A stretch of DNA of 64,000 nucleotides from Candidatus Hydrogenedens sp. (GCA_049968235.1 JBMFRC010000001.1:192001-256000); one strand, 5' to 3'. Counted from the stretch's first letter, positions 6,060 through 64,000 are shown. The notes: generated by a model from the sequence alone, not told the origin. Translations and numbers: made by a program.

Positions 6060-6301
6060 AAAAACAAAACCTGCCTGCTCGAAATAAGTTTGAGTTTATT
6101 GTATTGTAATTACATAGAGAGAAAAAATTAAACATAAATATAAAAAACTTCTATAATAATAGTCAAACTCAAAATTAGAATAAAACTGATGTAAGTATAT
6201 ACTTACTGTTCGTTAAATTGCAAATTGCAAACCTTATCTCTTTTATTATTAAAAATTTTTTGTGTCTCATTGCTTTTTTGTGGAGAAAATTTATTTTTTT
6301 T

Positions 6302-7060
6302 CTATGTTGCTATGAAGCCACCATCCACAATTAATTCCGCACCTGTCATCCAGCTGGATTCATCGGATGCAAGAAATAGTGCGGTATATGCAATATCTTC
6401 AGGTTTGCCAAGCCGTTTTAATGGCAAACTATCACCAATGGCTTTTTTCTTCTCAGGTGTCAAATAAGGTTCTTGTAAAGGCGTATCAACCATCCCCGGA
6501 TGAATAATATTACAACGAATATTGTCGGGACCAAATTGTACCGCTAATGATTTTGCTAATGAAATTAACGCACCTTTGGCACAGGTATAGGAATCCTGAG
6601 CCAATGTAAATCCGACCAATGCAGAGATTGAACCTACAAGGATGATGGACCCACCACCTGCTTTCTGCAAATATGGAATGCCATGTTTTGTCAGGAAAAA
6701 AGCACCTTTTAGATTTATCGCCTGCACAATATCCCAGTTTTCTTCGGTAGTTTCGATAACAGATTTATCACGGTCTTTCCATAATACGCCCGCATTGGCA
6801 TACAAAATATCCAATTTCCCGAATTGCTTTACAGCCTCTTCCACTCCTGCTTTTACATCTGCTTCCTTGCTTACATCACCAATAAAGACTGCACACTTAC
6901 CACCTTCGGATTTTATGATGTTTTCTGTTTCACGAGCTGCTTTTTCGTTCATATCAAATATCAATACACTGGTACCTTCGCGTGCAAAAAGTACTGAACC
7001 CGCACGACCCATACCCAGACCAGCACCCGTAATAATAGCGACTTTATCTTTTAATCTCAT
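6302..7060 (-). CDS. SDR-family oxidoreductase (3-oxoacyl-ACP reductase-like)
   Basis: 252 aa; TGAGLGMG Rossmann motif, NAG, YxxxK catalytic motif (YTCAKGAL). Confidence 0.85.
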   Translation of the reverse strand: MRLKDKVAIITGAGLGMGRAGSVLFAREGTSVLIFDMNEKAARETENIIKSEGGKCAVFIGDVSKEADVKAGVEEAVKQFGKLDILYANAGVLWKDRDKSVIETTEENWDIVQAINLKGAFFLTKHGIPYLQKAGGGSIILVGSISALVGFTLAQDSYTCAKGALISLAKSLAVQFGPDNIRCNIIHPGMVDTPLQEPYLTPEKKKAIGDSLPLKRLGKPEDIAYTALFLASDESSWMTGAELIVDGGFIAT

Positions 7061-54575: not shown

Positions 54576-54828
54576 AATCTTTCAAACATAAATAACACTT
54601 CTAAAAAGCAATACTATCTGTAATTTGTAGCAGAAGTTAGATCTGAATGTACGAAAAGAAGGATAGTATAAACAAAGCAAATACATTCATCTATTTATAT
54701 ATGTGTTGGAATTCATATAATTTGTGAGTAAAAAATCTTGCATGCAAAAAAACATCAATAGTGAAAAAATATAATTTATTCACAAGACACGAAGTTCGTA
54801 TAATACTCACAAAGATTATTTATAACAA

Positions 54829-57647: not shown

Positions 57648-58583
57648 TTATAAACCGGCTCTTTTCTTAAAATCGAATAGTTGAGGAGCATGAAATTCTG
57701 AAGAAAATTCTTGAATCCTTTTATTTGCTAAATTTACATAACTTTCGTTTATGTCATATCCGACATAATGTCGGGCAGTTCTTATTGCTGCAATTGCTGT
57801 CTGTCCACTTCCAATAAACGGGTCTAAAATAACTTCCCCTTCAAAGGTATAAAGTTGAATTAATCTGTAAGGTAGTTCTATAGGGAAAGGAGCGGGATGC
57901 CCCACCTTCGTTGCTTGTTCAGCAGAGAAAGACCAAACACTTTTTGTAAACTCGAGGAATTCTTCTTTTGAAATAGTATCTTTCCTATTTAGATTTCCTC
58001 TGCTGAATGTACCTTTGGAAAAAACCAGGATATACTCATGAATATCTCTAAGTGTCGGATTTTTTGCTGAAAGCCAACTTCCCCATGCAGTTGAAGGGCT
58101 ACCACTGGAATTTTTATTCCAAATAATTTCACCCCGCATTAAAAATCCCAAATCAAGCATATCTTCAATGATAAAAGTGTGTAATGGGATATATGGCTTT
58201 CTCCCAAGATTGGCAATATTAATACATACTCTACCTCCAGGAACCAATACCCTTTTAACTTCTTGCCATACCCTTTTTAAGAATTGTCTATATTCCCTTA
58301 AGGTAAGATTTTTGTCATATTCTTTACCAACATTATAGGGAGGAGAAGTAACCATCAAATGGATACTATTTTCTGGTAACTCCTCCATGTTTTCACTTGA
58401 TTTACAAAATATTTTATCTATAACTTCAATGGGAACGGAATTCTCAATATATTCAGATTTTTTTTCTTTAGGCAGTCCTTCATACAATTTACTTGCATAA
58501 AACGAAGTAGCATCATGATTTATTCTTCCGGGCGAACCGAAAGCACTTGTTTTTGTGCCATTTTTCCTTCGGTTAATTTCCAT
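57648..58583 (-). CDS. DNA methyltransferase, N4-cytosine/N6-adenine beta-class (DNA methylase N-4/N-6 domain)
   Basis: 311 aa; SPPY catalytic motif (LMVTSPPYNVGKEYD), C-terminal FxGSG SAM motif (DPFIGSGQT). Confidence 0.85.
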   Translation of the reverse strand: MEINRRKNGTKTSAFGSPGRINHDATSFYASKLYEGLPKEKKSEYIENSVPIEVIDKIFCKSSENMEELPENSIHLMVTSPPYNVGKEYDKNLTLREYRQFLKRVWQEVKRVLVPGGRVCINIANLGRKPYIPLHTFIIEDMLDLGFLMRGEIIWNKNSSGSPSTAWGSWLSAKNPTLRDIHEYILVFSKGTFSRGNLNRKDTISKEEFLEFTKSVWSFSAEQATKVGHPAPFPIELPYRLIQLYTFEGEVILDPFIGSGQTAIAAIRTARHYVGYDINESYVNLANKRIQEFSSEFHAPQLFDFKKRAGL

Positions 58584-58787
58584 CTATTCCTCCTTCCACA
58601 TGTCAATCCACCTTTTATATGAATTATACTTTATCGCTATCTTTTGCCAATGTATTTCAATCTTTTTGGTTTGTTTATGGTAAAGTAATTTTGACAGTGC
58701 CTCTTTAGAAAGTTCAACCCCTCTTGGATTAGTTCCAGGTTTCGGAAGTTTAATATAATTTTTTCTCCCCATTTCATCAAAAATCAT
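58584..58787 (-). CDS. small ORF (67 aa) between putative REase and MTase; possible C-terminal piece of a frameshifted REase or a small regulatory protein
   Basis: stop abuts the MTase ATG; begins 11 nt after the 138-aa ORF stop in a different frame. Confidence 0.3.
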   Translation of the reverse strand: MIFDEMGRKNYIKLPKPGTNPRGVELSKEALSKLLYHKQTKKIEIHWQKIAIKYNSYKRWIDMWKEE

Positions 58788-58798
58788 TCTTTGAACAC

Positions 58799-59215
58799 TT
58801 AATGGAATATAGTAAAACCACCTTCAGCATTCCAATTAATTTGAACAAGTAGCATATCGCAGTAAGGATAATATTTGTTAAGGAATTCTTTTGCTTTCTC
58901 AGAATCAACTGTCCATACAAGTTTAACTCCTCCTAAATTCTTTCCTGTAATCGTTTTCATAGATATCGGCTCACCAAACAATTTGACATCTACTTCTGGC
59001 TCAGTAACAGGAATTTCAGTCTCTACATTATTCTCCCCAAATTTATAAATAAGTAAAGCCACTATTATTTTTTCTCTAACCGAGCCAACCTCCATCCCAA
59101 TTTTACCCGCTCTTGAACTTTCCATATCTGCAATTTGAAATAAGTGAGGTAATCTTTTCTTTATCTTTTCTACAAGTATTTTATCTTCAAAAAGTTTTAA
59201 TAATTGTTCTGACAT
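58799..59215 (-). CDS. putative type II restriction endonuclease (or N-terminal part of one)
   Basis: 138-aa ORF directly upstream of and co-oriented with the MTase in an AT-rich island; EPEVDVK resembles a (D/E)xK nuclease core; no homology confirmed. Confidence 0.35.
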   Translation of the reverse strand: MSEQLLKLFEDKILVEKIKKRLPHLFQIADMESSRAGKIGMEVGSVREKIIVALLIYKFGENNVETEIPVTEPEVDVKLFGEPISMKTITGKNLGGVKLVWTVDSEKAKEFLNKYYPYCDMLLVQINWNAEGGFTIFH

Positions 59216-59584: not shown

Positions 59585-61042
59585 TTAGCCTTTTTCTATA
59601 CGATGGATTTCTTCTAACTGTTTTTGTATCTTCATCTCCGCTTTTTGTGTTTCTATAATAGGGTCGCAGATAGAATGCAGGTAATCATTAAGTTCGTGGA
59701 CAACAGATGGGGCATTAACCTTACTGTCTTTTATCAAATTGTTAAGTTCTTCCGTGTCCTCATCTAAATTGAACAATTGATGAGGTGCATCCGAGTTCCA
59801 GATAAATTTCCATCCACCTTTACGAACCATAAAACTACTACCGCGTGTCCCATGCCCATGATATTCTGCAAATACGAAACGGTCTGGATTCTCTTCCTGT
59901 AATTTTTGTAAAGCGGTTCCTTTCCAATTTTTTGGTCGTTGCCGTTTCGTAGCATGGAAGAACTCCGCCTGTGCATCCAAAGTGGTTATTGGTGTTCGGA
60001 TGCGTCGTCCCTTTTCAAATCCGGGTCCACAGGCAAGCAATGGTACGCGGGCAGAGTCTTCAAACATGGAGCATTTCCACCACATACCAAATTTGCCTAA
60101 CATCTCTCCATGGTCAGATGTGTATATAAATATCGTATTCTTATTTAGTCCTGTTTGTTCCAGTGTGTCTAAAATCTTTCCTATCATCGTATCTACAAAA
60201 CTGACACAGCCATAATATCCCTGTCTCAATCTTTTTACATCTTCTCCCTGAATTTGGTCTGTTTCGAAATGATTTCGCAAATCAACCGCATAGGGATGTT
60301 GTGCGGAAGGCTGGTCTGGTCCATACTGTGGAATATCGCCCTTCCCCTCATACATTCCCCAGAAGTTCGGCTCCGTAAAATGAGGGAAATGTGGTGCAAC
60401 AACATTGACCCATAGAACAAATGGTTTATCTAATTGTGTTCCTTTCGTTTTAAGCCAATCTACCGCAGTATCGACCATTAACTGGTCATGACGATGTGCT
60501 TTCTCTCGTGGTCCCCAACCTTTGGCTCGTTCCTGCCCAGTCCCTTTGCGGATACATAACGGTTTTCGCTGAATAAAAGTATCCCCGGGGGTTCCACGAT
60601 TCCAACCATAATAAACCTCATTAAATCCCATTTCTTCTATCTTTCGATACACATCTGCCTTGCCAATATATACCGTATGCACTCCTTGTTCCGCCAGAAT
60701 AGAACCATAATTAGGGAAATTATCCAGAAATAATGTGCAATTGCTATAACACTGCGTTTCATGATTGTATAATCCACTTATCACTGAACTTCGACTTGGG
60801 AGACATAATGGCGATGGGCAATATACATTCTCAAAAACAACACCATTTTTTGCTATTCGTTCCATATTCGGAGTTTGCACAAAAGGATGTCCATATACCG
60901 ATGTATATCGTGGATTATGTTCATCTGACATCAGCATAACCACATTATATTCCTTATGCTCCGTCTCGCAGAACGGAACTTTTGACAATAACAAACTTGT
61001 CGCAATTGTTCCCTGTAAAAATTCCCTTCGATTCATTGACAT
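59585..61042 (-). CDS. Tat-secreted sulfatase (arylsulfatase family)
   Basis: 485 aa; twin-arginine signal (RREFLQG), sulfatase CxPxR signature (CLPSR) with downstream metal-binding motifs. Confidence 0.88.
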   Translation of the reverse strand: MSMNRREFLQGTIATSLLLSKVPFCETEHKEYNVVMLMSDEHNPRYTSVYGHPFVQTPNMERIAKNGVVFENVYCPSPLCLPSRSSVISGLYNHETQCYSNCTLFLDNFPNYGSILAEQGVHTVYIGKADVYRKIEEMGFNEVYYGWNRGTPGDTFIQRKPLCIRKGTGQERAKGWGPREKAHRHDQLMVDTAVDWLKTKGTQLDKPFVLWVNVVAPHFPHFTEPNFWGMYEGKGDIPQYGPDQPSAQHPYAVDLRNHFETDQIQGEDVKRLRQGYYGCVSFVDTMIGKILDTLEQTGLNKNTIFIYTSDHGEMLGKFGMWWKCSMFEDSARVPLLACGPGFEKGRRIRTPITTLDAQAEFFHATKRQRPKNWKGTALQKLQEENPDRFVFAEYHGHGTRGSSFMVRKGGWKFIWNSDAPHQLFNLDEDTEELNNLIKDSKVNAPSVVHELNDYLHSICDPIIETQKAEMKIQKQLEEIHRIEKG

Positions 61043-61139
61043 AACGGATTCCTTTCAATAGGACAACTCACAATTACTATTTTTGCAACCATTTTGCTAT
61101 TATAATAAAAGCATCTAAAAAAGAAAAGCGAGTACTCCC

Positions 61140-61532
61140 ATGCTTTGCCCAAATTGTAAAAAACAAATACTTCTTATCATGGAATACAATCAGATTGAAC
61201 TGGATTTTTGTCCGGAATGTTTAGGTGTCTGGCTCGATGCAGAAGAATTGCAATGGATATTAGGTGCCAATTTTGACGAACAAAGTTTATTCACAACATC
61301 TACAATTAACGAAGTAAAGAAAAAATGTCCCCGTTGCAGAAGCAATATGCATAAAGTTTTCCTTCCCGAAAATAATCAGGTCATTTACGATACCTGCCCC
61401 AATCAACATGGTTTCTGGTTTGACCGTGGCGAATTAGAAATACTCATTCATAGCCTTTCCGAATTTCCCGGTACACATTCCTTTCTTCAATGGCTCACTG
61501 AAGTTTTTGCCTACTCCAAAAAGGAAAAATAA
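61140..61532 (+). CDS. duplicated zinc-ribbon protein (zf-TFIIB-like, CPxC...CPxC x2)
   Basis: 130 aa; two CxxC...CxxC units each followed by WLD/WFD-EL motif. Confidence 0.65.
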   Translation: MLCPNCKKQILLIMEYNQIELDFCPECLGVWLDAEELQWILGANFDEQSLFTTSTINEVKKKCPRCRSNMHKVFLPENNQVIYDTCPNQHGFWFDRGELEILIHSLSEFPGTHSFLQWLTEVFAYSKKEK

Positions 61533-61663
61533 TCTGATTCCTTTGAGTAAAACAACAAAAGAAATCTTCTTGTAAAATTAAAATAACTGCCTCTTCCCTA
61601 TCTCCATCATTTTAATTCTAATCCTATTCATCCTGTTACTTATTTTTATCCATCTTAACGAAG

Positions 61664-61866
61664 TTTTGCACACTGAATATCAAGATAAAATTTGTGTATA
61701 AAGAAAACCCGTTTTACACATTGTTTTTTAATAAAAATAAGAAACGATTTGCATGGAAAACTATAGATTTTTTGTAACTTTTCCCCTATTTATCCACAGA
61801 TTATCCACAGGTTTTCAAAAGCATTATCCACGATATTCTGAACAATTTTTCCACATTTTATTCACC
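61664..61866 (+). promoter_or_regulatory. cluster of >=8 DnaA boxes (TTWTNCACA) with helical phasing, followed by AT-rich tract
   Basis: TTTTGCACA 61664; TTATACACA (minus) 61693; TTTTACACA 61712; TTATCCACA 61790 and 61801; TTATCCACg 61824; TTTTCCACA 61847; TTATTCACc 61858. Confidence 0.55.
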
Positions 61867-61871
61867 TAATA

Positions 61872-61887
61872 TTACTATATATTGTAT
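61872..61887 (+). promoter_or_regulatory. candidate NrdR box (TTACTATATATTGTAT vs consensus acaCwAtATaTwGtgt)
   Basis: 13/16 match including entire CwAtATaTwG core, ~210 nt upstream of nrdD. Confidence 0.3.
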
Positions 61888-62098
61888 ATTGGGAATAAAA
61901 TTCTACTTGACATTGTGTCCTGTTTGTTATAAAATAGTTTTATCTTTTTTGTTTTCTATGAAAATTTAATCAAACAGTAGTTAGCCCTCCTAAATCTTAC
62001 CCGAAGGCAAAAAATAACCTTATTTTTTGGGGATATTAGATTTGGGTGATAAAATTAAAGTTTAAATGAATAAAAGTTTAATTTAGGGAGCGTAGGCT

Positions 62099-64000
62099 AT
62101 GCAGAATTGGGAAATAAGTTCGGCTGAGATTTTTACAGACTTGGTTCCGTTCACGCATGTATTGAAGAGAGATGGGCGAAAGGTTCCTTTCTCTGCAGGA
62201 AAAATAACCCAAGCCATCTTAAAGGCAGGAAAAGCCACCGGTGAATTTGGGATAGATATTGCCCGTCGTTTAACTCTTCGTGTATTGGCACTTTTGCAAA
62301 CTATGCCATTAGAAGGACATCCCACTGTTGAAGAAATTCAGGACGCGGTGGAAGAGATTTTATTAATGTCACCATTTAAGAAAACCGCTAAGGCATATAT
62401 TCTTTATCGTGACCAGCATGCTCGCATCCGTGAGATGGTCAATAAAGCGGATGTAGATTTGATTGACCGCTATCTTGAAAAGATGGACTGGAAAGTTCAG
62501 GAAAACAGTAATATGGCATATTCCCTCCAGGGTTTGAACAATTATATTTCCAGTGAAATTAGCAAGGTATATTGGCTTAACAAAATCTATACACCAGAAG
62601 TACGAGAAGCACATCGTTCGGGAGACTTGCATCTACATGACCTTGGTTTGCTATCGGTATATTGTGTAGGCTGGGATTTGCAAGATTTGCTATTAAATGG
62701 CTTTCAGGGAGCACCGGGAAAAGCAGAGAGCAAGCCTGCCAAACATTTCCATACAGCATTAGGGCAGGTTGTTAATTTCTTTTATACCTTACAGGGTGAA
62801 GCGGCAGGGGCACAGGCTTTTAGCAACTTTGACACTCTTTTAGCACCTTTTATCCGTTATGATGGTTTAAATTATCGTGAGGTAAAGCAAGCACTACAAG
62901 AGTTTATTTTTAATTTGAATGTAGCAACACGGGTTGGTTTCCAAACTCCATTTACGAATGTTACATTGGACTTACAACCACCTGCCAATTTAGCCAATCA
63001 GCCTGTTATCATTGGTGGGGAATATCAAGATGCCACATATGGTGAGTTCGCAAACGAAATGAAACTATTTAATTCGGCGTTTCTTGAGGTTCTTTCCGAA
63101 GGAGATGCAAAAGGACGAGTATTTAGTTTTCCAATACCTACTTACAATATTACTAAAGATTTTAACTGGGATGACCCGGACCTTGTCCGTTTATGGGAAG
63201 TAACGGCAAAATATGGCATTCCGTATTTTGCCAATTTTATCCATTCCGATATGTCCCCTTGTGATGCCCGTTCGATGTGTTGTCGTTTACGGCTGGATTT
63301 GCGTGCATTAGAACGAAGAGGCGGTGGGCTTTTCGGGGCAAATCCATTAACAGGGTCCATCGGTGTTGTTACCATCAATATGCCTCGAATTGGCTACTTA
63401 TCTGCGAATGAGGATGAATTTTTTGAACGATTTGATAATTTGATAAATATTGCCCGCACCAGTCTCGAAACGAAGCGGAAGGTGCTTGAACAATTAACAG
63501 ATAACGATTTATATCCATACACGAAATTCTACCTGCGTAATGTATATCAACGATATAACCATTACTGGAACAATCATTTCTCTACTATTGGTCTGATTGG
63601 TATGAATGAAGCATGCCTGAATCTCCTTGGAAAGGATATTGGCACTTCAGAAGGCTTAGAATTTGCAATCCGAGTACTGTACCATGCCCGAAACCGGTTA
63701 AGAGAATTCCAACAGGAAACAGGTAATTTGTATAACCTTGAAGCAACTCCTGCTGAAGGGACCAGTTATCGTCTTGCTCGTCTGGATTATGAACGCTATC
63801 CGGATGCCCATTTTGCGAATACGGAACAACTCCGAAATGGTAGTGTCCCATTTTATACCAATTCTACACAATTACCTGTAAATTATACCGATGATATTTT
63901 CAAAGTGCTTGAGTTACAGGACCCACTACAGACACAATATACCGGTGGTACGGTTCTGCACATCTTTTTAGGGGAATCGGTAGCCAATCCTAATGCGGTC
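62099..64000 (+). CDS. nrdD: anaerobic ribonucleoside-triphosphate reductase (class III RNR), 5' 634 codons; continues beyond window
   Basis: my own translation from ATG 62099 (AGGGAG SD) is open to the window end; N-terminal ATP-cone (VLKRDGRKVPFSAGKITQAI), NrdD core motifs incl. CDARSMCCRLRLD. Confidence 0.85.
   Translation, partial: MQNWEISSAEIFTDLVPFTHVLKRDGRKVPFSAGKITQAILKAGKATGEFGIDIARRLTLRVLALLQTMPLEGHPTVEEIQDAVEEILLMSPFKKTAKAYILYRDQHARIREMVNKADVDLIDRYLEKMDWKVQENSNMAYSLQGLNNYISSEISKVYWLNKIYTPEVREAHRSGDLHLHDLGLLSVYCVGWDLQDLLLNGFQGAPGKAESKPAKHFHTALGQVVNFFYTLQGEAAGAQAFSNFDTLLAPFIRYDGLNYREVKQALQEFIFNLNVATRVGFQTPFTNVTLDLQPPANLANQPVIIGGEYQDATYGEFANEMKLFNSAFLEVLSEGDAKGRVFSFPIPTYNITKDFNWDDPDLVRLWEVTAKYGIPYFANFIHSDMSPCDARSMCCRLRLDLRALERRGGGLFGANPLTGSIGVVTINMPRIGYLSANEDEFFERFDNLINIARTSLETKRKVLEQLTDNDLYPYTKFYLRNVYQRYNHYWNNHFSTIGLIGMNEACLNLLGKDIGTSEGLEFAIRVLYHARNRLREFQQETGNLYNLEATPAEGTSYRLARLDYERYPDAHFANTEQLRNGSVPFYTNSTQLPVNYTDDIFKVLELQDPLQTQYTGGTVLHIFLGESVANPNAV

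What the first reader, a model, noticed from the sequence alone, without database searches (positions are those of the whole stretch)
61640..62098. Phased DnaA-box array plus AT-rich tract upstream of nrdD: oriC-like region or DnaA/NrdR-controlled RNR promoter
Within about 200 bp there are at least eight 9-mers matching TTWTNCACA with one or no mismatches. Two are perfect TTATCCACA copies 11 bp apart. Seven of the eight are in the same orientation, with centre spacings of 11, 23, 23 and 11 bp, that is, integral helical turns. They are immediately followed by about 210 bp of roughly 80% AT DNA. That AT-rich tract also holds a good NrdR-box match (TTACTATATATTGTAT). Such density and phasing of DnaA boxes next to an AT-rich unwinding-type tract is the hallmark of a bacterial replication origin. 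Alternatively it is the DnaA-regulated RNR promoter architecture known from E. coli nrdAB. Either way it is a strong, specific protein-binding array that the CDS annotation does not explain. dnaA and dnaN are not in this window, so an oriC here would be non-canonical in position.
Basis: seen in the sequence. Interest (0 to 1): 0.75.

Follow-up and report, generated by a model that had tools for sequence, protein, structure and literature searches.

The report
DnaA-box array in nrdDG promoter
A real, conserved row of binding sites for the replication initiator DnaA sits just upstream of the promoter of the anaerobic ribonucleotide reductase genes in Candidatus Hydrogenedens; it most likely ties DNA-precursor supply to replication and is probably not the chromosome's replication origin.

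Summary
Window 61664-61866 holds eight 9-mers within one mismatch of TTWTNCACA, six of them exact, against 14 exact matches in the other 63.8 kb. Comparison of 12 distinct Candidatus Hydrogenedens sequences shows eight same-strand positions spaced 11-12 bp apart, plus three distal boxes. These are followed by a canonical pair of NrdR boxes (15-bp spacer), an 11/12 sigma-70 promoter, a ~160-nt leader and nrdD-nrdG.

The oriC reading is not supported:
- The "AT-rich tract" is 75% AT, ordinary for intergenic DNA here, and is filled by the promoter and the NrdR operator.
- No dnaA lies within 10 kb in any locus.
- Strand-corrected GC skew does not change sign at the array in the window's strain or in seven relatives.
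- The array and nrdDG travel together as a ~3.2-kb block through at least 5 left and 6 right gene contexts.

The regulatory reading is supported. E. coli DnaA binds upstream of nrdD at a double box with a 2-bp gap (ChIP-seq, PMC11317965). Patescibacterial-type nrdD loci carry a perfect TTATCCACA upstream, about 160-fold enriched.

Verdict: an expanded variant of a DnaA/NrdR-controlled ribonucleotide reductase promoter. Interest is moderate to low.

The parts
61664..61672 (+). Distal DnaA box A (TTTTGCACA)
   Evidence: Exact TTWTNCACA match. Conserved at the same offset (about -227 from the GGGAATAAAAT anchor) in 10 of 12 distinct Hydrogenedens sequences.
61693..61701 (-). Distal DnaA box B (TTATACACA on the - strand), the only inverted box
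   Evidence: Exact match. GTGTATAA is conserved in most relatives.
61712..61720 (+). Distal DnaA box C (TTTTACACA)
   Evidence: Exact match. Present in the closest relatives (L003, L031, L032, L046) and degenerate in the others.
61779..61787 (+). Array position 1 (TTTTCCCCT), decayed in this strain
   Evidence: Two mismatches here, but TTTTCCACA or CTTTCCACA at the same position (within one base) in L011, L024, L036 and L048.
61790..61798 (+). Array position 2, perfect TTATCCACA
61801..61809 (+). Array position 3, perfect TTATCCACA. With position 2 it forms a double box with a 2-bp gap.
   Evidence: Gaps of 2-3 bp are the arrangement E. coli DnaA prefers (PMC11317965).
61812..61820 (+). Array position 4, weak site (TTTTCAAAA)
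   Evidence: Two mismatches here. The same position reads TTATCAACA in L003/L031/L046 and TTATCCTCA in L004.
61824..61832 (+). Array position 5 (TTATCCACG)
   Evidence: One mismatch. Perfect TTATCCACA in L003, L031, L032 and L046.
61836..61844 (+). Array position 6, weak site (TTCTGAACA)
   Evidence: TT[CT]TGAAC[AG] is kept in 8 of 12 sequences and GTTGAACTA in two more. It resembles TTAAGAACA, the weak partner of the E. coli nrdD double box.
61847..61855 (+). Array position 7 (TTTTCCACA)
   Evidence: Exact match. The most conserved box: TTTTCCACA in 10 of 12 sequences.
61858..61866 (+). Array position 8 (TTATTCACC), nearest the promoter
   Evidence: One mismatch. TTAT[TAG]CAC is conserved. 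It ends 5 bp before NrdR box 1.
61872..61887 (.). NrdR box 1 (TTACTATATATTGTAT)
   Evidence: The only match to ACWATATATWGT with 0 or 1 mismatch in 64 kb. Nearly invariant in 12 sequences.
61903..61918 (.). NrdR box 2 (CTACTTGACATTGTGT), overlapping the -35
   Evidence: By my count from the sequence it matches 11 of 16 positions of the acaCwAtATaTwGtgt consensus, which I recalled from memory. It lies 15 bp after box 1, the canonical 15-16 bp spacer (PMC12051234). Invariant in 11 of 12 sequences.
61907..61935 (+). Sigma-70-type promoter TTGACA-17-TAAAAT
   Evidence: 11 of 12 consensus match. Both hexamers are conserved in relatives.
61942..62098 (+). Inferred 5' leader of nrdD, with Shine-Dalgarno AGGGAG at 62085-62090
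   Evidence: The transcription start is inferred from the -10 position. No Rfam family matches. The fold is no better than shuffles, z = -0.6.
62099..64000 (+). nrdD (class III anaerobic ribonucleotide reductase with an N-terminal ATP-cone). It runs off the window end; nrdG follows.
   Evidence: Pfam NRDD 667 bits and ATP-cone 80 bits on the full-length copy in L001; nrdG is a radical-SAM activase.

Best explanation
The region is the cis-regulatory region of the nrdD-nrdG operon (class III anaerobic ribonucleotide reductase and its activase) of a Candidatus Hydrogenedens bacterium. It is under dual control.

1. NrdR, the nucleotide-sensing repressor, binds the two 16-bp boxes at 61872-61887 and 61903-61918. 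The second box overlaps the -35, so bound NrdR blocks RNA polymerase.
2. DnaA binds the perfect double box at 61790/61801. As ATP-DnaA it then spreads cooperatively along eight positions spaced 11-12 bp apart (61779-61866), all in one orientation and pointing at the promoter. Three more boxes lie 60-200 bp upstream. Occupancy of this array changes nrdDG transcription, so that dNTP synthesis follows the replication-initiation cycle.

Shown: the sites, their phasing, their conservation, their fixed distance to the promoter, and their inheritance together with nrdDG.

Inferred: that Hydrogenedens DnaA is the protein that binds, that binding depends on ATP-DnaA oligomerisation, and the sign of the effect. 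By analogy with E. coli nrdAB I favour repression at high ATP-DnaA, with relief after initiation. The array probably also soaks up roughly ten DnaA molecules as a side effect.
For: - The cluster is far beyond chance and unique in the 64 kb.
- Eight positions at -112, -101, -90, -79, -67, -55, -44 and -33 bp from an invariant anchor are kept, within one base, in 11 of the 12 distinct sequences that span down to about 75% DNA identity in this block. The 83%-identity relative L005 keeps an 11-bp-spaced run at shifted offsets. The two gaps inside the array, shared by L011/L048 and by L031/L046, are each exactly 11 bp, one unit. TRF finds a period of 11.
- The array is followed at fixed distance by a conserved promoter (11/12) and a canonical tandem NrdR operator.
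- Array plus nrdDG is the only block shared between species. The left flank falls into at least 5 and the right flank into at least 6 unrelated gene contexts.
- Precedent: E. coli DnaA ChIP-seq shows a peak 62-fold over control upstream of nrdD, at a double box with a 2-bp gap. DnaA generally prefers pairs of boxes 2-3 bp apart (PMC11317965).
- An independent lineage shows the same link. In loci whose NrdD is 56-60% identical (the named genomes are Patescibacteria), a perfect TTATCCACA lies within 500 bp upstream of nrdD in 11 loci (at least 7 distinct), against 2 in 692 kb elsewhere. In at least L010 it lies about 10 bp upstream of a TTGACA.
- Multi-box DnaA clusters that regulate neighbouring genes are known in B. 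subtilis (PMC3245932, PMC4447404).
Against: - No binding or expression data exist for this organism.
- Nothing shows that Hydrogenedens DnaA recognises TTATCCACA; this rests on the wide conservation of DnaA domain IV.
- Eight to eleven boxes is many more than any described DnaA-regulated RNR promoter needs, so another or additional role (DnaA titration or DnaA activity control) is possible.
- The array is upstream of the promoter and in forward orientation. In E. coli nrdD the boxes lie in the leader and in reverse orientation, so the mechanism need not be the same.
- Hydrogenedentota-like loci with NrdD at 64-71% identity lack the array, so it is not required for nrdD expression in general.
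Confidence: 0.72

Rival explanations
1. It is the chromosomal replication origin (oriC) of Hydrogenedens, in a position not linked to dnaA. DnaA would oligomerise on the array and open the adjacent AT-rich DNA.
For: - It is a dense box cluster with a perfect double box and 11-bp phasing, like the low-affinity arrays of E. coli oriC.
- The boxes point toward AT-rich DNA, in the orientation I recall for E. coli R1 relative to its unwinding element.
- A minimal DnaA-trio-like pattern (3-4 NAN repeats on the complementary strand) follows positions 7 and 8 (criteria from PMC8287927).
- The coarse cumulative GC skew has a local minimum at 61-62 kb.
- One distant relative (L005) has gidB about 3 kb upstream.
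Against: - Strand-paired GC skew keeps the same sign on both sides. In the window's own strain it is r = -0.046 on the left and -0.069 on the right. In L004 it is +0.071 and +0.064. None of 7 loci shows the expected negative-to-positive switch at four-fold sites, and L004 (+/+), L033 (-/-) and L036 (-/-) are clearly the same sign on both sides.
- The cumulative skew falls further after nrdDG: -446 at 62 kb, -511 at 67 kb.
- Gene orientation does not diverge at the site.
- No dnaA is found in the window or within 10 kb of the array in any Hydrogenedens locus (query validated).
- The "AT-rich tract" has ordinary intergenic composition, has no repeated 13-mer-type elements, and is occupied by a conserved promoter and NrdR operator.
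- The trio pattern is met by chance by 33% (3 or more repeats) or 13% (4 or more) of box-like sites in the window.
- Both flanks are reshuffled between close relatives, unlike the gene order around origins, which is typically conserved.
Confidence: 0.06
2. It is mainly a chromosomal DnaA-control locus, like E. coli datA or DARS or the B. subtilis DnaA-box clusters. It would titrate DnaA or change its nucleotide state to time initiation, and its position next to nrdDG would be incidental or secondary.
For: - The number of sites (8 phased plus 3 distal, one of them inverted) exceeds what simple promoter control needs.
- Loss of the B. subtilis clusters causes early initiation, and some of those clusters also regulate neighbouring genes (PMC3245932).
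- E. coli datA and DARS also contain double boxes.
Against: - The array is never separated from the nrdDG promoter, although both flanks are reshuffled in many lineages, and its distance to the promoter is fixed. That argues for a function in cis on nrdDG.
- No IHF-type site or DARS-like core was identified. I did not test this rigorously.
Confidence: 0.14
3. The 11-bp direct repeats bind a different factor, for example an OmpR/PhoB-family response regulator. Such regulators also use direct repeats with a period of about 11 bp. The resemblance to DnaA boxes would then be coincidental.
For: - The 11-bp periodicity of same-strand repeats upstream of a -35 is typical of winged-helix response regulators (my own knowledge, not tested).
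- The weak positions keep mainly the ...CA[AC]A core.
Against: - The strong sites match the full 9-bp DnaA consensus perfectly, twice here and up to three times in relatives. They include the leading TTWT and the trailing G seen at E. coli ChIP-bound sites.
- The distal boxes include an inverted copy.
- Unrelated lineages place a perfect TTATCCACA at nrdD promoters.
Confidence: 0.05

Closest known systems
E. coli nrdDG upstream DnaA site (ChIP-seq; Stringer, Fitzgerald & Wade 2024, PMC11317965)
   Same: - The same operon, nrdD-nrdG.
- A double DnaA box with a 2-bp gap: TTAAGAACA-gg-TTATCCACAg in E. coli, TTATCCACA-ga-TTATCCACAg here.
- Tandem NrdR boxes at the promoter.
   Different: - E. coli has one double box plus one further box, all downstream of the promoter in the leader and reading TGTGGATAA on the sense strand.
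- Here there are 8 phased positions plus 3 distal boxes, all upstream of the -35, and the phased positions are in forward orientation.
E. coli nrdAB promoter (DnaA double box; DnaA acts on nrdA transcription)
   Same: - DnaA boxes close to an RNR promoter, with NrdR boxes as well.
- A double box with a 3-bp gap, TTATCCACAaagTTATGCACT.
- The idea that RNR expression is tied to the state of the initiator.
   Different: - A class Ia enzyme and only two boxes. By my recollection, not checked here, they lie directly upstream of the -35.
- No long phased array.
B. subtilis DnaA-box clusters outside oriC (sda, ywlC, yydA and others; PMC3245932, PMC4447404)
   Same: Multi-box clusters in promoter or intergenic regions that bind DnaA strongly, regulate neighbouring genes and also buffer initiation.
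   Different: - None is at an RNR operon.
- Strict 11-12-bp same-strand phasing over eight positions is not described for them in the parts of those papers I read.
Low-affinity DnaA arrays of E. coli oriC (R1-tau2-I1-I2 and R4-C1-I3-C2-C3)
   Same: A high-affinity anchor box followed by same-orientation weaker sites separated by 2-3 bp, which is the scaffold for an ATP-DnaA oligomer (PMC11317965 cites the same spacing rule).
   Different: - Those arrays are part of an origin with an unwinding element and sit at the GC-skew switch.
- This array is at a promoter, and the origin criteria tested here fail.
Canonical NrdR operator (two 16-bp boxes, 15-16-bp spacer; PMC12051234)
   Same: - The box 1 core is perfect.
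- The spacer is 15 bp.
- Box 2 overlaps the -35, as at S. pneumoniae nrdDG.
   Different: - Box 2 is a weaker match (11 of 16).
- The 12-bp block TGGGAATAAAAT inside the spacer is invariant in all 12 sequences, which NrdR binding does not explain.

Membership tests
Bacterial chromosomal origin (oriC) | Cluster of DnaA boxes | tested here: met
   8 sites within one mismatch in 203 bp, 6 of them exact.
Bacterial chromosomal origin (oriC) | Adjacent DNA-unwinding element: an exceptionally AT-rich tract with repeated elements or DnaA-trios | tested here: not met
   - 75% AT, within the range of ordinary intergenic gaps.
- No repeated AT-rich 13-mer-type units.
- The trio pattern is only at the minimal level, which 13-33% of box-like sites reach by chance.
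- The tract is occupied by a conserved promoter and NrdR boxes.
Bacterial chromosomal origin (oriC) | Located at the switch of replication strand asymmetry (GC-skew minimum) | tested here: not met
   - Strand-corrected skew has the same sign on both sides in the window's strain and in L004, L033 and L036. There is no negative-to-positive switch in any of 7 loci.
- The cumulative skew continues to fall after nrdDG.
- Limitation: only about 8-10 kb of right flank is available, and no closed genome.
Bacterial chromosomal origin (oriC) | Linkage to dnaA/dnaN or other origin-region genes, and conserved gene order around it | tested here: not met
   - No DnaA homologue in the window or in 1.14 Mb of fetched loci.
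- Flanks fall into at least 5 left and 6 right contexts.
- Only L005 has gidB nearby.
- Linkage is usual but not obligatory (E. coli is an exception), so this is supporting evidence only.
Bacterial chromosomal origin (oriC) | Supports initiation in vivo (marker-frequency peak, autonomous replication) | not testable with these tools
   Needs read-coverage data or experiments.
DnaA-regulated ribonucleotide reductase promoter (E. coli nrdAB / nrdDG type) | DnaA boxes within the promoter or leader region of an RNR operon | tested here: met
   The array ends 40 bp upstream of the -35 of the nrdD promoter.
DnaA-regulated ribonucleotide reductase promoter (E. coli nrdAB / nrdDG type) | Boxes arranged as pairs 2-3 bp apart, the arrangement needed for binding in vivo in E. 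coli | tested here: met
   Gaps between successive positions are 2, 2, 2, 3, 3, 2 and 2 bp. The rule comes from PMC11317965.
DnaA-regulated ribonucleotide reductase promoter (E. coli nrdAB / nrdDG type) | Sites conserved together with the operon across species | tested here: met
   12 distinct sequences, conserved positions, and inheritance with nrdDG through different flanks.
DnaA-regulated ribonucleotide reductase promoter (E. coli nrdAB / nrdDG type) | DnaA binds and changes transcription | not testable with these tools
   Needs EMSA or footprinting and reporter or transcriptome data.
NrdR operator | Two 16-bp palindromic boxes separated by 15-16 bp (or 25-26 bp) | tested here: met
   Boxes at 61872-61887 and 61903-61918, with a 15-bp spacer (rule from PMC12051234).
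NrdR operator | Overlaps the core promoter of an RNR operon | tested here: met
   Box 2 contains the -35 TTGACA at 61907-61912.
NrdR operator | nrdR gene present in the genome | not tested
The 130-aa zinc-ribbon protein at 61140-61532 is PF13453, has no ATP-cone, and is not NrdR.
datA / DARS / DBC-type DnaA-control locus | Box cluster whose deletion changes initiation timing; IHF site (datA, DARS2) or a specific box I-II-III core (DARS) | not testable with these tools
   The functional definition needs experiments. I did not attempt a rigorous IHF or DARS-core search.

The most novel reading that the evidence does not exclude
The array is more than a promoter element. It would be an origin-like ATP-DnaA oligomerisation scaffold acting as a chromosomal DnaA-control locus (datA/DBC-like sink or switch) that is physically fused to the only anaerobic RNR promoter. 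One DnaA filament would then both set initiation timing and gate dNTP synthesis. At the extreme, it would be a non-canonical origin, which I put at about 0.06 on its own.
Probability: 0.18. Interest if true: 0.6.

Novelty: new variant of a known kind. Interest (0 to 1): 0.33.

Why it matters
DnaA control of ribonucleotide reductase is known mainly from E. coli. Here an uncultivated phylum (Hydrogenedentota) carries a much larger, helically phased DnaA array on its class III RNR promoter, alongside NrdR. Patescibacteria-type nrdD loci carry a single perfect box upstream of the gene. Together with the E. coli ChIP-seq result, this suggests that coupling dNTP supply to the initiator is widespread and evolutionarily flexible.

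It is also a practical warning for origin predictors. A dense, phased DnaA-box cluster next to AT-rich DNA is not enough to call an origin. This locus would be a false positive on draft genomes.

Tried and rejected
- **Known RNA in the region:** an Rfam scan of 61000-62600 at permissive thresholds gave only a chance-level ctRNA hit (E = 3.5), so there is no riboswitch or known RNA in the leader.
- **Leader and array structure:** the RNA fold of the leader and the DNA fold of the array are no better than shuffles (z = -0.6 and -1.0).
- **Terminators:** the scan found none.
- **Unwinding-element-like repeats:** none found.
- **DnaA-trio / BUS test:** formally met, but not discriminating. I could not confirm the box-to-trio orientation from the papers I read and relied on my recollection of E. 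coli R1 and its unwinding element.
- **dnaA search:** Pfam on eight ORFs of DnaA or DnaN size in the window, and tblastn over all fetched loci, found nothing.
- **Hydrogenedentes closed genome or origin in the literature:** the search returned nothing useful.
- **Raw cumulative GC skew:** it follows gene orientation too closely to be used alone, so I replaced it with four-fold-site and strand-paired estimates.
- **First attempt to join the window to L001:** it was off by one base because of an indel and was redone.
- **Second box cluster at 54723-54810:** it is only AT-rich DNA with TCACA/TGTGA fragments, not a convincing array.
- **The Hydrogenedens dnaA locus:** I could not locate it.

Full report
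**1. What is in the sequence**

The non-coding region 61533-62098 lies between a 130-aa double zinc-ribbon protein (61140-61532, PF13453) and nrdD. The nrdD ATG is at 62099. The gene has an ATP-cone and an NRDD domain, runs off the window, and is followed by nrdG in the near-identical contig L001.

Exact matches to TTWTNCACA occur at 61664(+), 61693(-), 61712(+), 61790(+), 61801(+) and 61847(+). That is six of the 20 exact matches in the whole 64 kb, and no other 230-bp stretch has more than one. Seven are on the + strand, with steps of 11, 23, 23 and 11 bp. Tandem Repeats Finder independently finds a period-11 repeat with unit TTATCCACAGA.

**2. Organism and relatives**

NrdD relatives in genome and metagenome collections identify the organism as Candidatus Hydrogenedens (Hydrogenedentota, formerly NKB19). 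The closest named relative is Ca. Hydrogenedens terephthalaticus, at 97% NrdD identity.

Every locus with NrdD at 83% identity or more that has enough upstream sequence carries the box cluster upstream of nrdD. Loci at 64-71% identity do not.

**3. Comparative anatomy**

I aligned 12 distinct upstream sequences and measured offsets from the invariant GGGAATAAAAT (window 61891).

- There are eight positions, at -112, -101, -90, -79, -67, -55, -44 and -33. These are steps of 11, 11, 11, 12, 12, 11 and 11 bp, all on the same strand. Most species have a 9-mer with 0-2 mismatches at each position.
- Position 1 (61779, TTTTCCCCT) has decayed in this strain but is TTTTCCACA in several relatives.
- The two gaps inside the array, shared by L011/L048 and by L031/L046, are each exactly 11 bp, so the phase is kept.
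- Three distal boxes (61664, 61693 inverted, 61712) are also conserved in most species.

**4. What follows the array**

- Five bp after the last box comes TTACTATATATTGTAT (61872-61887). Its core ACWATATATWGT is the only match in 64 kb with 0 or 1 mismatch.
- Fifteen bp later lies a second, weaker NrdR-type box (61903-61918), which contains the -35.
- A spacer of 15-16 bp with box 2 over the -35 is the canonical NrdR operator (PMC12051234).
- The promoter TTGACA-17-TAAAAT (61907-61935) matches 11 of 12 consensus positions.
- The block from array position 7 through the -10 is the most conserved part of the whole intergenic region.
- The leader of about 160 nt has no Rfam match and no significant fold.

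The "AT-rich unwinding-type tract" is thus a promoter, an operator and a leader. At 75% AT it is no richer than the other intergenic gaps of the window, which range from 62 to 84%.

**5. Is it an origin?**

I tested four of the features that define an origin. Only the box cluster is met.

(a) Strand asymmetry.
- Raw cumulative GC skew has a local minimum at 61-62 kb, but it tracks gene orientation. It falls further after nrdDG (-446 at 62 kb, -511 at 67 kb).
- Correcting for coding strand, the excess of G on the + strand is r = -0.046 to the left and -0.069 to the right of the array in the window's own strain, and +0.071 and +0.064 in L004.
- At four-fold degenerate sites, none of seven loci with both flanks shows the negative-to-positive change an origin requires. 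L004 (+0.26/+0.22), L033 (-0.05/-0.24) and L036 (-0.47/-0.17) have the same sign on both sides.
- nrdD is even on the G-rich strand in some species and on the C-rich strand in others.

(b) Gene orientation does not diverge at the site.

(c) No dnaA or dnaN is present in the window. A tblastn with a DnaA query, which Pfam confirmed as DnaA at 270 bits, finds nothing in 1.14 Mb of fetched loci, including 10 kb on each side of the array in about ten Hydrogenedens loci.

(d) Synteny. DNA similarity between species is confined to the array plus nrdDG, window 61642/61790 to about 64850. The left flank falls into at least five unrelated contexts and the right flank into at least six. Origin regions are normally among the most syntenic parts of bacterial chromosomes (general knowledge).

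(e) The minimal DnaA-trio pattern of the basal unwinding system (PMC8287927) can be found after positions 7 and 8. However, 33% (3 or more repeats) or 13% (4 or more) of box-like sites in the window meet it by chance, and it overlaps the NrdR box.

The one hint in favour is gidB about 3 kb upstream in the 83%-identity relative L005.

I put the origin reading at about 6%. The caveats are that no closed genome was available, the right flank of the window's strain is only about 5 kb beyond nrdG, and the skew in this strain is weak.

**6. The regulatory reading**

The array's fixed position relative to the promoter and its inheritance with nrdDG through many rearrangements are what a cis-regulatory element predicts.

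There is direct precedent. E. coli DnaA ChIP-seq found a peak 62-fold over control upstream of nrdD, at the double box TTAAGAACAggTTATCCACAg. It also showed that DnaA in vivo needs pairs of boxes 2-3 bp apart, which is the spacing here (PMC11317965). I read the E. coli region myself. There the boxes lie in the leader, downstream of the NrdR-covered promoter, and in reverse orientation. The architecture therefore differs even though the players are the same.

A third lineage gives independent support. Among loci whose NrdD is 56-60% identical (the named genomes are Patescibacteria), a perfect TTATCCACA lies within 500 bp upstream of nrdD in 11 loci (at least 7 distinct sequences), against 2 perfect boxes in the remaining 692 kb. 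That is about 160-fold enrichment. In at least L010 the box lies about 10 bp upstream of a TTGACA.

Multi-box DnaA clusters that regulate adjacent genes and also buffer initiation are established in B. subtilis (PMC3245932, PMC4447404).

**7. Most likely mechanism**

DnaA anchors on the perfect double box at 61790/61801. As ATP-DnaA it then oligomerises along the eight phased positions toward the promoter, ending 5 bp from NrdR box 1. The three distal boxes may stabilise the complex, possibly by looping. Occupancy alters nrdDG transcription, while NrdR reports the dATP/ATP balance at the overlapping operator.

- Shown: the sites, their phasing, their conservation, and their linkage to the promoter and operon.
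- Inferred: the identity of the binding protein, the ATP dependence, and the sign of the effect. By analogy with E. coli nrdAB I favour repression by high ATP-DnaA with relief after initiation, but activation is equally compatible with the upstream position.

A role as a DnaA sink or control locus (about 14% as the main function) and binding by another factor that recognises direct repeats (about 5%) remain as rivals.

**8. Verdict**

The origin interpretation is not supported. The DnaA/NrdR-controlled RNR promoter interpretation is supported by conservation, context and precedent, but it is untested biochemically.

This is an expanded, upstream, helically phased variant of a known kind of element, found in a candidate phylum. 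It is of moderate to low interest to a specialist. It is useful as evidence that DnaA-RNR coupling is widespread, and as a warning that draft-genome origin predictors can be misled by such clusters.

Noticed in passing
L010 (about -119 from nrdD), L013 (-184), L014/L051-L053 (-195), L054/L071 (-124), L055 (-163), L059 (-152), L072 (-86): Loci with NrdD 56-60% identical to the query (the named genomes are Patescibacteria/CPR) carry a single perfect TTATCCACA within 500 bp upstream of nrdD. There are 11 such loci (at least 7 distinct), against 2 perfect boxes in 692 kb elsewhere. In at least L010 the box lies about 10 bp upstream of a TTGACA. This suggests that DnaA control of nrdD is widespread.
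   Followed up: partly
Alignment of upstream regions; window 61779-61866: The two gaps between species inside the array, shared by L011/L048 and by L031/L046, are each exactly one 11-bp unit. The number of boxes therefore varies by unit slippage while the helical phase is preserved.
   Followed up: partly
window 61890-61901 (TGGGAATAAAAT): This 12-bp block inside the spacer between the two NrdR boxes is invariant in all 12 sequences, including the 83%-identity relative L005. That is more conservation than a spacer needs. It may be an UP-like element or the site of another factor.
   Followed up: no
window 57648-59215 (- strand): A ThaI-family restriction endonuclease gene is split into two ORFs: 58799-59215 matches profile positions 1-128, and 58584-58787 matches positions 139-203. 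It lies next to an intact N4/N6 DNA methyltransferase (57648-58583). This looks like an inactivated restriction enzyme with a surviving methylase. None of the relatives' left flanks resembles this one, so it may be a recent insertion.
   Followed up: partly
L005 7733-9300: In the 83%-identity relative there is about 1.6 kb without any ORF of 90 aa or more between a 211-aa ORF and the box cluster. gidB (rsmG) lies at 6070-6723. A second small box group (9356, 9364, 9380) lies about 270 bp upstream of the main array.
   Followed up: no
window 61836-61844 and L090 (E. coli nrdD leader): The conserved weak position TTCTGAACA resembles TTAAGAACA, the weak partner of the E. coli nrdD double box. This is a possible shared low-affinity site type.
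   Followed up: no
(locus tables): Above 83% NrdD identity the named loci are Hydrogenedens/Hydrogenedentota, apart from some MAGs labelled only 'uncultured bacterium' or Nitrospirales. Among named genomes the next-closest NrdDs (56-61%) come from MAGs labelled archaeal, Patescibacteria or Acidobacteriota, not from neighbouring phyla. This may indicate horizontal transfer of the nrdDG block.
   Followed up: no
window 54723-54810: This is the second-densest group of box-like 9-mers in the window (5 within one mismatch in 150 bp). It lies in a 691-bp intergenic gap after the DUF4914 gene. By eye it is just AT-rich DNA with TCACA/TGTGA fragments.
   Followed up: partly
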